Positions 38,499 to 38,651 of a stretch of 64,000 bases of DNA are shown here, one piece after another (the first letter of the stretch is position 1; every line of letters starts with the position of its first letter). The DNA is taken from NCBI GenBank assembly GCA_004321885.1, contig SCQK01000004.1, positions 22,684 through 86,683 on the forward strand, written 5' to 3'. Source of the stretch: Patescibacteria group bacterium (lineage in GTDB: Bacteria > Patescibacteriota > Patescibacteriia > Magasanikbacterales > GWA2-37-8). Position numbers and translations under genes: made by a program. The notes beneath the pieces were generated by a model. That model was not told the DNA's origin and made no database searches. It was given only the letters and a program-made list of their open reading frames with translations.

Positions 38499-38544
38499 TT
38501 GACTTATACAATTACTTGACATATTATTTTAATATGGTATATTA
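38499..38544 (+). promoter_or_regulatory. Two tandem sigma70-like promoters (TTGACT-17-TATTAT and TTGACA-16-TATATT) driving a plus-strand transcript in a region flanked by minus-strand genes
   Basis: TTGACT 38499..38504 with TATTAT 38522..38527. TTGACA 38516..38521 with TATATT 38538..38543. Confidence 0.5.
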
Positions 38545-38549
38545 GTGCT

Positions 38550-38651
38550 GTAAACGTAAGTTTACACAAAACTAGACGCTTGGAACAAATCCCAGTGGGA
38601 AAGTCCGCGAGGACTACCAAGTTGCCTGGCCCCGATCTATCGGGGTTTTTT
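38550..38651 (+). ncRNA. Candidate ~100-nt sRNA (three hairpins: GUAA and GCGA tetraloops plus an intrinsic terminator)
   Basis: GTAAAC-GTAA-GTTTAC, then CTTGG..GTCC-GCGA-GGAC..CCAAG, then the terminator GCCCCGA-TCTA-TCGGGG-TTTTTT (38629..38651). No plus-strand ORF. Confidence 0.35.

What the first reader, a model, noticed from the sequence alone, without database searches (positions are those of the whole stretch)
38499..38651. Orphan plus-strand transcription unit in a minus-strand neighbourhood: candidate sRNA
- Two tandem near-consensus sigma70 promoters (TTGACT-17-TATTAT and TTGACA-16-TATATT) sit upstream.
- About 100 nt of non-coding sequence follows, with GUAA- and GCGA-tetraloop hairpins.
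- A clean intrinsic terminator (GCCCCGA-TCTA-TCGGGG-UUUUUU) ends it.
- Both flanking genes (recO and DUF3800) are on the other strand.
- No SRP, tmRNA or 6S signature was recognized.
Basis: seen in the sequence. Interest (0 to 1): 0.55.

Follow-up and report, generated by a model that had tools for sequence, protein, structure and literature searches.

The report
Known sRNA paired with DUF3800 nuclease
The candidate small RNA is real but already catalogued (Rfam DUF3800-II RNA), and it is not an orphan: it forms a two-gene cassette with the RNase H-like DUF3800 gene that runs into it from the other strand, most likely as that nuclease's RNA partner or antidote.

Summary
A near-consensus promoter, about 100 nt of non-coding sequence with two hairpins, and a clean intrinsic terminator lie at 38499-38651 (+).

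The core, 38568-38631, is a full-length match to Rfam RF02961, DUF3800-II RNA (67 bits, cut-off 43.2). Weinberg et al. described this motif in 2017; its function is still unknown.

In about 100 related loci from Patescibacteria (CPR) genomes and metagenomes:
- The promoter, three-way-junction motif and terminator are conserved as one unit.
- Covariation is strong: 95.6% of cells pair, against 77% in shuffles.
- The only conserved neighbour is a 180-aa DUF3800 gene, always convergent. Its stop codon usually abuts the sRNA terminator, 2 nt away in this window.

The association is asymmetric. All 79 evaluable DUF3800 genes carry the RNA, but 9 of 25 RNA-anchored loci lack an intact DUF3800.

Best reading: a self-contained, mobile two-gene cassette in which the sRNA is the cognate partner of the nuclease, probably antitoxin-like. 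The mechanism is inferred, not shown.

The 5' GUAA hairpin is specific to a sub-clade. The upstream "tandem" promoter is not conserved.

Novelty is low (known family). Interest is moderate because the family's function is still open.

The parts
38499..38527 (+). Upstream promoter-like site, TTGACT-17-TATTAT. It is probably not the functional promoter.
   Evidence: Scores 10/12. Relatives have no counterpart at this position.
38516..38543 (+). sRNA promoter, TTGACA-16-TGgTATATT (extended -10). The predicted transcription start is G38550.
   Evidence: Scores 11/12 plus TG. Of 82 distinct related loci, 70 have a match of at least 9/12 upstream of the motif, and TTGACA itself occurs in 45 of 82. 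The closest relative, L027, has the same 24-nt distance from the -10 box to the motif, and relatives L030, L039 and L037 have 30-32 nt. The transcription start is inferred, not mapped.
38550..38565 (+). 5' stem-loop, GUAAAC-GUAA-GUUUAC, starting at the predicted +1. It is an accessory element specific to a sub-clade and lies outside the Rfam model.
   Evidence: Fold. Hairpins of 6-8 bp with different sequences occupy the same place in L027, L030, L039 and L037. They are absent from the majority, where the -10 box ends 4-7 nt before the motif.
38568..38631 (+). DUF3800-II RNA motif (RF02961), a three-way junction. P1: 38574-38577 with 38624-38627. P1b: 38579-38583 with 38617-38621. Junction AACAAA: 38584-38589. 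P2: 38590-38593 with 38597-38600. P3: 38602-38606 with 38611-38615, closed by a GCGA loop. Conserved 5' tail: AAAACU.
   Evidence: cmscan gives 67.0 bits against a cut-off of 43.2, over the full model 1-69. My own model R1 gives 72.2 bits. The minimum-energy fold reproduces the structure. Covariation is shown.
38628..38651 (+). Intrinsic terminator, GGCCCCGA-TCTA-TCGGGGTT plus a T6 run. Its stem uses the conserved 3' GRCC tail of the motif.
   Evidence: A hairpin with a T-run follows the motif in 77 of 78 distinct loci.
38653..39195 (-). Partner gene: a 180-aa DUF3800 protein with a type 2 RNase H-like fold. Its stop codon (38653-38655) lies 2 nt from the sRNA T-tract.

Best explanation
SHOWN:
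- The feature is a member of the known DUF3800-II RNA family (RF02961).
- It has the sequence hallmarks of a roughly 100-nt structured sRNA with its own sigma-70 promoter and intrinsic terminator.
- It forms a two-gene cassette of about 0.7 kb with the convergent DUF3800 gene.
- That gene's product has a type 2 RNase H-like fold and an intact set of candidate catalytic acidic residues (D-E-D-D).

INFERRED (mechanism):
- The sRNA is the dedicated partner of this nuclease. Its conserved junction nucleotides (AAC, ACAAA, AG, CUA, CUG-CC) and three helices most likely form a surface that DUF3800 binds.
- The RNA most probably restrains the nuclease, acting like an antitoxin. This would resemble type III toxin-antitoxin systems, or retron type VII, where DUF3800 is the effector and a non-coding nucleic acid is the regulator.
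- The DUF3800 stop codon abuts the sRNA terminator, and no terminator exists on the DUF3800 strand. The DUF3800 mRNA 3' end must therefore be antisense to the sRNA, which may add a second, cis-antisense layer of control.
- Overall the cassette behaves like a mobile addiction or defence module in Patescibacteria.

My confidence that it is RF02961 and a real sRNA gene is about 0.97. That RNA and protein work together, about 0.85. The figure of 0.45 given for this explanation applies to the antitoxin-like direction of control.
For: Identity: Rfam gives 67 bits against a cut-off of 43.2.

Structure:
- 95.6% of cells pair, against 77.3% in shuffles and 26-51% in slid controls.
- 14 of 17 pairs show compensatory changes across 82 distinct sequences. 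An independent regex-registered count agrees.
- G.U pairs outnumber A.C pairs 56 to 20, which places the structure on the sRNA strand.

Transcription unit: the promoter position and terminator are conserved.

Coupling to DUF3800:
- All 25 loci found by an RNA pattern alone in GTDB genomes pass the Rfam cut-off. Sixteen of them carry an intact DUF3800, always directly 3' of the RNA and on the opposite strand.
- Of 80 protein-anchored metagenome loci, 79 carry the RNA in that same place. The one exception has only 62 nt of contig after the gene.
- No other gene family recurs in the flanks (78 of 86 distinct loci have DUF3800; the next real family is in 5).

Asymmetry, as expected if the protein needs the RNA but not the reverse:
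- 9 of 25 RNA-anchored loci lack an intact DUF3800. Seven have none in any frame, L021 has an internal deletion, and L007 keeps only an 18-aa stub. All nine retain an intact RNA.
- 0 of 79 DUF3800 genes lack the RNA. Fisher p = 7e-7, or 5e-5 after collapsing lineages.
- Two tandem DUF3800 paralogues in L104 each keep their own RNA.

Nuclease: the fold and invariant acidic residues, and a pI of 9.6.

Accessory or mobile character:
- GC drops to 0.30-0.41 over 38200-40000, against about 0.50 in the flanks.
- An identical cassette sits in different flanks, bracketed by 40-56-nt direct repeats, in the closest lineage.

Family context from the literature:
- DUF3800 is the effector in retron type VII (PMC7736814).
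- It is a CRISPR accessory nuclease (PMC10910872, PMC12669027).
- There is a weak PADLOC hit to the candidate defence protein PDC-M04A.

Geometry for antisense overlap: the stop codon begins -1 to +10 nt from the end of the T-tract in 54 of 73 loci. No terminator-like site lies on the DUF3800 strand before the far side of the sRNA gene in any of 72 loci.
Against: - No transcript, binding or toxicity data exist for any DUF3800 RNA. Weinberg et al. offered no hypothesis, and no functional paper was found.
- In a Legionella Tn-seq study, a strain-specific DUF3800 gene from a different clade scored as essential and was listed beside antitoxins. A simple 'DUF3800 is the toxin' model does not predict this.
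- Orphan RNAs keep intact promoters and terminators, so they appear to be maintained without a neighbouring DUF3800. This needs an extra assumption, such as a partner elsewhere in the genome or protection against incoming cassettes.
- The co-occurrence asymmetry would also fit an RNA that is an obligatory cofactor rather than an inhibitor.
- The invariable convergent arrangement may simply be inherited with the cassette. [quoted passage not shown]
- The strict RNA pattern found nothing in viral contigs, and the protein has no PHROG hit, so a link to phage defence is only by analogy.
Confidence: 0.45

Rival explanations
1. Pure cis-antisense regulator, like a type I toxin-antitoxin pair. The sRNA would act only by pairing with the complementary 3' end of the convergent DUF3800 mRNA, or by transcriptional collision, lowering DUF3800 expression. 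This resembles RatA/txpA or SR4/bsrG in Bacillus. No RNA-protein contact would be needed.
For: - The DUF3800 stop codon is 2 nt from the sRNA T-tract in this window, and -1 to +10 nt away in 54 of 73 loci.
- In about 7 loci the ORF runs into the antisense of the terminator or motif.
- No terminator lies on the DUF3800 strand before the far side of the sRNA gene.
- The orientation is convergent in every locus.
- The sRNA promoter is strong and near consensus.
Against: - A cis-antisense RNA is complementary by construction and needs no conserved fold. Here 14 of 17 pairs covary, and the unpaired junction nucleotides are at least 97% conserved while the protein falls to about 40% identity.
- G.U pairs exceed A.C pairs, so selection acts on the sRNA strand's own structure.
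- Orphan RNAs with no DUF3800 mRNA to pair with stay intact.
- The sRNA shows no complementarity to the DUF3800 translation start region.
Confidence: 0.2
2. Ribonucleoprotein cofactor. The sRNA would be a required subunit of the DUF3800 enzyme, serving as a scaffold, an activator or a targeting element. On this reading the RNA enables the RNase H-like nuclease rather than restraining it.
For: - The protein never occurs without the RNA (79 of 79).
- Each paralogue has its own RNA.
- The RNA is highly conserved and looks built for tertiary contacts: a three-way junction with GNRA loops.
- The Legionella 'essential' DUF3800 gene is not explained by a toxin role.
Against: - There is no guide-like variable single-stranded segment. 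The variable parts are the paired distal P3 and the terminator hairpin.
- If the RNA only served the protein, both losses should be seen. Instead only the protein is lost or decayed (9 against 0).
- The sporadic distribution, low-GC island and changing flanks point to an accessory or selfish module rather than a housekeeping enzyme.
Confidence: 0.2
3. Reversed roles. The RNA would be the harmful component, and the DUF3800 nuclease its antidote, cleaving or sequestering it. This resembles type V or type VIII toxin-antitoxin logic.
For: A strain-specific DUF3800 gene scored as essential in the Legionella Tn-seq study, in a list alongside antitoxins. An RNase H-like nuclease could plausibly cleave an RNA.
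Against: Seven loci carry an intact, promoter-bearing RNA with no DUF3800 in any frame, and two more have a decayed DUF3800. A toxic RNA without its antidote should not persist.
Confidence: 0.05
4. Not an sRNA at all. It would be a cis-regulatory leader or riboswitch, a small protein-coding gene, or a chance combination of promoter-like and terminator-like sequence.
For: Consensus scans alone are only mildly enriched over shuffles. Short ORFs overlap the region: 38423-38545 (+) and 38504-38620 (-).
Against: - No same-strand gene lies downstream, and the motif is followed directly by a terminator.
- The Rfam match has E = 1e-11.
- About 100 loci conserve the whole unit with covariation.
- The short ORFs are not a conserved feature of relatives.
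Confidence: 0.01

Closest known systems
DUF3800-II RNA motif (Rfam RF02961; Weinberg et al. 2017, NAR 45:10811, PMC5737381)
   Same: It is a full-length match above the curated cut-off. It has the same three-way junction and the same conserved junction nucleotides, a DUF3800 gene next door and a Rho-independent terminator. It is a member of this family.
   Different: This instance has an extra 5' stem-loop (38550-38565), shared only by a small sub-clade. It has a short 5-bp P3 with a GCGA loop and one A.C mismatch in P1.
Other DUF3800-associated RNA motifs (DUF3800-I, III-XI) and the drum and skipping-rope RNAs (PMC5737381)
   Same: These are structured RNAs of unknown function that consistently neighbour DUF3800 or related genes. 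Several end in terminators. They presumably play the same biological role.
   Different: They have unrelated sequences and structures. [quoted passage not shown] In this family it was always convergent and directly 3' of the RNA.
Type III toxin-antitoxin systems (ToxIN, CptIN, TenpIN)
   Same: This is the proposed working analogy: a small structured RNA that directly neutralises a nuclease encoded beside it, in a compact mobile two-gene module. The protein never occurs without the RNA.
   Different: There is no tandem-repeat antitoxin array. The RNA is convergent rather than upstream in the same operon. The protein has an RNase H2-like fold, not a ToxN-type endoribonuclease fold. Neutralisation is untested. 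It is not a member.
Type I toxin-antitoxin pairs with convergent, 3'-overlapping antisense RNAs (RatA/txpA and SR4/bsrG of Bacillus subtilis; own knowledge)
   Same: The arrangement is convergent, with unavoidable complementarity between the two 3' ends. The RNA has a strong promoter.
   Different: The protein is a 180-aa soluble nuclease-like protein, not a small hydrophobic peptide. The RNA has a deeply conserved, covarying fold that antisense action does not require.
Retron type VII (reverse transcriptase + msr/msd non-coding RNA + DUF3800 effector; Mestre et al. 2020, PMC7736814)
   Same: It uses the same effector family, DUF3800 with an RNase H2-like fold, coupled to a dedicated structured non-coding nucleic acid in a defence-type module.
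   Different: No reverse transcriptase gene is present in this window or in any of 86 related loci. The partner is a plain sRNA, not msDNA.

Membership tests
DUF3800-II RNA (Rfam RF02961) | Covariance-model score at or above the curated gathering threshold (43.2 bits), covering the whole model | tested here: met
   67.0 bits, E = 1.1e-11, model positions 1-69 of 69, at 38568-38631 (+).
DUF3800-II RNA (Rfam RF02961) | Three-way junction (P1/P1b, P2, P3) with conserved unpaired junction nucleotides | tested here: met
   The cmscan alignment and the minimum-energy fold show all helices. Covariation across 82 distinct relatives supports each helix. The AAC, ACAAA, AG, CUA and CUG-CC positions are at least 97% conserved and all are present here.
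DUF3800-II RNA (Rfam RF02961) | Genomic association with a DUF3800-domain gene | tested here: met
   A PF12686 protein is encoded at 38653-39195 (-), directly 3' of the RNA. The same holds in 16 of 25 RNA-anchored loci and 79 of 80 protein-anchored loci.
Type III toxin-antitoxin (ToxIN-like) | Antitoxin RNA encoded as tandem direct repeats upstream of the toxin gene, on the same strand | tested here: not met
   No tandem repeats in 38200-39400. The RNA is single-copy and convergent.
Type III toxin-antitoxin (ToxIN-like) | Toxin is a ToxN/AbiQ-type endoribonuclease that processes its own antitoxin | tested here: not met
Type III toxin-antitoxin (ToxIN-like) | RNA neutralises the protein by direct binding | not testable with these tools
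   This needs co-expression, EMSA or structural work. Only indirect support is available: the co-occurrence asymmetry.
Type I toxin-antitoxin with 3'-overlapping antisense RNA | Antisense RNA overlaps the toxin mRNA | tested here: inconclusive
   The geometry forces an overlap: the stop codon is 2 nt from the T-tract, and no terminator lies on the DUF3800 strand. Transcript ends are not mapped.
Type I toxin-antitoxin with 3'-overlapping antisense RNA | Toxin is a small hydrophobic membrane peptide | tested here: not met
   The protein is 180 aa, has a pI of 9.6 and models as a globular RNase H-like fold.
Retron type VII | Retron reverse transcriptase gene adjacent to, or fused with, DUF3800 | tested here: not met
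   The neighbours are recO, AsnRS, a membrane ORF and Nramp. No recurrent third gene appears in 86 related loci.
Type 2 RNase H (for the partner protein) | RNase HII/HIII fold | tested here: met
Type 2 RNase H (for the partner protein) | DEDD catalytic tetrad in the structurally equivalent positions | tested here: inconclusive
   D6, E7, D106 and D146 are invariant in 55 homologues. Their spacing resembles D7/E8/D105/D135 of Tk-RNase HII, which I cite from memory. No residue-level superposition could be made with these tools.
Riboswitch or cis-regulatory leader | Located in the 5' UTR of a downstream gene on the same strand | tested here: not met
   The next gene downstream is on the opposite strand. 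The motif is followed directly by a terminator, with no alternative structure.

The most novel reading that the evidence does not exclude
The DUF3800-II RNA and its DUF3800 partner could form a previously uncharacterised class of RNA-protein addiction or defence module, widespread in Patescibacteria. In it, a single-copy three-way-junction sRNA would directly bind and hold in check a type 2 RNase H-fold toxin, reinforced by obligatory antisense overlap of the two 3' ends. This would be functionally type III-like but built from entirely different parts. By extension, it would explain the eleven DUF3800 RNA motifs, and perhaps drum and skipping-rope, all unexplained since 2017.
Probability: 0.35. 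Interest if true: 0.65.

Novelty: already known. Interest (0 to 1): 0.3.

Why it matters
As an object, the feature is an ordinary annotation: a standard Rfam scan names it. It matters only because the family's function has been open since 2017, when its discoverers wrote that "no specific hypothesis" was obvious to them.

The comparative picture assembled here turns that open question into a simple experiment: co-expressing or separating the RNA and the nuclease. The relevant facts are:
- a strictly two-component cassette;
- an always-convergent arrangement, with the stop codon against the sRNA terminator;
- the protein never without the RNA, while the RNA survives loss of the protein;
- an RNase H2-like fold with intact acidic residues.

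If the antitoxin-like reading holds, it would give a role to a whole group of unexplained structured RNAs. It would also add an RNase H-fold effector controlled by a non-coding RNA to the list of toxin-antitoxin and defence systems, in the poorly studied CPR bacteria.

Tried and rejected
- Trans-antisense control of DUF3800 translation. Duplex energies between each sRNA and its own DUF3800 start region (-14.7 kcal/mol) match non-cognate (-14.6) and shuffled (-15.1) controls. Rejected.
- Bidirectional use of the sRNA terminator, or a nearby terminator for the DUF3800 mRNA. No terminator-like site lies on that strand before the far side of the sRNA gene in any of 72 loci. Only 20 of 72 have one within 400 nt beyond it.
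- Phage origin. The strict RNA pattern gives 0 hits in IMG/VR viral contigs, and the protein has no PHROG family.
- NCBIfam gives no hit.
- Sequence search of the PDB with a 55-sequence profile finds nothing meaningful, with the best E = 0.2. Only fold comparison worked.
- Tandem repeats (type III-like array) and flanking inverted or direct repeats around the window's cassette: none convincing.
- A third conserved gene, such as a reverse transcriptase or an antitoxin protein: none.
- Literature. No functional study of any DUF3800 RNA was found. The supplement of Weinberg et al. is not held. One 2026 preprint that mentions DUF3800 could not be opened.
It was repeated with database proteins only.
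- The MAFFT alignment mis-registers P2 and P3 between the 3-nt-loop and 4-nt-loop variants. Covariation was therefore counted on a regex-registered parse and on a model-based alignment.

Full report
**1. The observation**

- There are two overlapping promoter-like sites: TTGACT-17-TATTAT at 38499-38527 (10/12), and TTGACA-16-TATATT at 38516-38543 (11/12, with an extended -10, TGg).
- There is a GUAA-loop hairpin at 38550-38565 and a GCGA-loop hairpin at 38602-38615.
- The terminator GGCCCCGA-TCTA-TCGGGGTT is followed by six T, at 38628-38651.
- recO (37538-38290) and a DUF3800 protein gene (38653-39195) flank the region on the minus strand.
- The stretch from the predicted start (G38550) to the T-run folds at -36.5 kcal/mol, z = -4.0 against 200 dinucleotide shuffles.

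**2. What it is**

A scan of the whole window against Rfam 15 gives four hits above the gathering score. One of them lies inside the finding: RF02961, DUF3800-II RNA, at 38568-38631 (+). It scores 67.0 bits against a cut-off of 43.2, E = 1e-11, and matches model positions 1-69 of 69.

The family is one of eleven "DUF3800" RNA motifs reported by Weinberg et al. 2017 (PMC5737381). They found the motifs by searching around DUF3800 genes. They noted that several end in terminators, and they stated that no specific hypothesis for their function was obvious. I found no later functional study in the held literature.

The sRNA interpretation is therefore right, but the object is already catalogued.

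**3. Relatives found from the RNA**

A strict IUPAC pattern of the conserved core, run over GTDB species genomes, returned 25 loci. Nearly all come from Patescibacteria/CPR MAGs. All 25 pass the Rfam gathering score, at 50-78 bits.

In these loci a sigma-70 promoter sits directly upstream of the motif. A GC hairpin with a T-run follows, and its stem incorporates the conserved 3' GRCC tail.

Across 82 distinct loci (including those of section 4):
- 70 have a promoter match of at least 9/12;
- in 64 of those 70 the -10 box ends 4-7 nt before motif position 1;
- 77 of the 78 distinct loci scored for it have a T-tract after the motif.

Promoter, motif and terminator are therefore one conserved transcription unit.

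The window belongs to a small sub-clade (with L027, L030, L039 and L037). In this sub-clade the motif begins AAAACUAG (AAAACUAA in L037, CAAACUAG in L027), and a leader of 24-32 nt forms a 6-8-bp hairpin starting at the predicted +1. The hairpin sequence differs between members.

**4. Structure support**

On a model-based alignment of 100 hits (82 distinct):
- 95.6% of cells form standard pairs, against 77.3% in column shuffles and 26-51% when the partners are slid by 1-3 columns;
- 14 of 17 pairs show changes on both sides.

An independent count on a regex-registered parse of 26 sequences agrees.

G.U pairs outnumber A.C pairs 56 to 20, so the selected structure is on the sRNA strand and not its complement.

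The unpaired AAC, ACAAA and CUA nucleotides, the first two base pairs of P1 (AG/CU) and of P3 (AG/CU), and the 3' CUG-CC are at least 97% conserved. Over the same set of loci, the neighbouring protein falls to about 40% identity.

**5. The partner gene**

tblastn with the window's DUF3800 protein shows an intact homologue in 16 of the 25 RNA-anchored loci. It is always immediately 3' of the RNA and on the opposite strand.

I then ran the converse test. A protein-anchored scan of JGI/ENA metagenome contigs gave 80 loci. My covariance model finds the RNA directly after the gene, on the opposite strand, in 79 of them. The single miss has only 62 nt of contig after the gene.

Clustering all flanking ORFs from 86 distinct loci finds no other recurrent gene. 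DUF3800 is present in 78 loci. The next cluster, in 7 loci, is the antisense shadow ORF inside DUF3800 itself. The next real family appears in 5. The unit is a strict two-component cassette in changing surroundings.

The geometry is tight. The stop codon begins -1 to +10 nt from the end of the sRNA T-tract in 54 of 73 loci, and 2 nt away in this window. In about seven loci the ORF reads into the antisense of the terminator or motif.

No terminator-like site exists on the DUF3800 strand before the far side of the sRNA gene in any of 72 loci. The two transcripts should therefore be complementary at their 3' ends.

**6. Asymmetry**

Nine of the 25 RNA-anchored loci lack an intact DUF3800.
- Seven have none in any reading frame, even with a subfamily HMM. 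Their neighbours include NUDIX, ORF6N/KilA-like, DUF559-like and ParA-like genes.
- L021 has an internal deletion.
- L007 retains only an 18-residue stub.

All nine keep a full-scoring RNA. By contrast, none of the 79 evaluable DUF3800 genes lacks the RNA. Fisher p = 7e-7, or 5e-5 after collapsing related loci.

Two tandem DUF3800 paralogues in L104 each have their own RNA. L041 has an extra orphan copy of the RNA.

**7. The protein**

A 55-sequence alignment gives an AlphaFold2 model with pLDDT 88 and pTM 0.86.

D6, E7, D106 and D146 are invariant. Their spacing resembles the DEDD tetrad of Tk-RNase HII, which I cite from memory and did not superpose here. The pI is 9.6.

Sequence-only searches of the PDB, PHROGs and NCBIfam find nothing. 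PADLOC gives a weak hit to a candidate defence protein, PDC-M04A.

**8. Accessory character**

GC falls from about 0.50 to 0.30-0.41 across 38200-40000.

The closest relative of the protein (76% identity) occurs with an identical cassette in different flanks. There the cassette is bracketed by 40-56-nt direct repeats. I found no such repeats around the window's copy.

**9. Mechanism**

What is shown:
- a member of a known sRNA family;
- a conserved transcription unit;
- obligatory pairing with an RNase H2-like gene.

What is inferred: the sRNA is the nuclease's cognate partner and most probably restrains it, acting like an antitoxin. The reasons are:
- the protein never occurs without the RNA, whereas the RNA outlives the protein;
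- the sRNA promoter is near consensus;
- the cassette is small, sporadic and mobile;
- in retron type VII the same protein family is the effector, governed by a non-coding nucleic acid.

The forced 3' overlap may add antisense control.

A purely antisense mechanism is less likely, because such an RNA needs no conserved, covarying fold, and because orphan RNAs persist. A cofactor (RNP) role remains possible. Reversed roles are contradicted by the orphan RNAs.

One published observation cuts against a simple "DUF3800 is the toxin" model. A strain-specific DUF3800 gene, from another clade, scored as essential in a Legionella Tn-seq study.

I rate the antitoxin-like mechanism at about 0.45, any functional RNA-protein partnership at about 0.85, and the identity as RF02961 at about 0.97.

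**10. Verdict**

The feature is already known as a family, and I score novelty accordingly.

Interest is modest (0.3). Its value lies in an open family-level question, which the architecture and co-occurrence data assembled here make directly testable.

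Noticed in passing
window 38284-38380 (+), between recO and the sRNA promoter: A long hairpin at 38321-38374 has an A-run on its 5' side and a U-run on its 3' side (-19.8 kcal/mol, z = -3.6). It looks like a bidirectional terminator. It could end read-through DUF3800 transcripts before recO. It is preceded by a promoter-like site, TTGACA-17-TAATAT (38284-38312, 10/12 plus TG). The 18 nt around that site's -35 box (38279-38296) match the sRNA promoter region (38511-38528) at 16 of 18 positions.
   Followed up: partly
window 38200-40000, including the ORF at 39199-39810/40068 (-): This is a low-GC island (0.30-0.41 against about 0.50 in the flanks). It covers the sRNA, DUF3800 and an upstream membrane-protein ORF of 203 to 289 aa. 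That ORF ends 3 nt before the DUF3800 start codon. It has no Pfam match above the cut-off and no NCBIfam hit, and it is not found next to the cassette in other loci.
   Followed up: partly
L108 152-207 and 946-1001 (also L107, L109, L110 and L027): In the closest relative of the window's cassette (76% protein identity), direct repeats of 40-56 nt bracket the DUF3800 + sRNA unit. The core is ATGCAGTTRTATAAACAAGGTAAATAAGACGACGGGATAA, 97.5% identical between the two copies. The identical cassette also sits next to different downstream genes in different contigs. This suggests insertion or excision by recombination.
   Followed up: partly
L104 1431-2820; L041 902-970: L104 carries two tandem DUF3800 paralogues, each with its own divergent DUF3800-II RNA (25.6 and 52.9 bits). 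L041 has a second, orphan RNA copy 2.2 kb from a complete cassette.
   Followed up: partly
L009 3469-4026 and L020 (about 7 loci in all): In a minority of loci the DUF3800 ORF lacks the usual stop codon. It reads through the antisense of the sRNA terminator into the motif, ending ...GGQNFG or ...GGQTAG. Coding sequence and the sRNA gene therefore overlap on opposite strands.
   Followed up: no
L003, L005, L012, L014, L016, L022, L025: These are orphan DUF3800-II RNAs with intact promoters and terminators but no DUF3800. In several, the RNA is convergent with an unrelated gene sitting where DUF3800 normally is: NUDIX hydrolase in L016 and L003, an ORF6N/KilA-like protein in L012, and a DUF559-like endonuclease in L005.
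   Followed up: partly
window 15267-15725 (-), 1155-1227 (+), 11638-11721 (+): Bacterial RNase P RNA class A (131.8 bits). Its 459-nt span exceeds the 367-position model, so it contains insertions. Two tRNA genes are also present. All are ordinary housekeeping RNAs. The window's DUF3800 protein is identical to EPN28_00915 of a 'Patescibacteria group bacterium' MAG.
   Followed up: no
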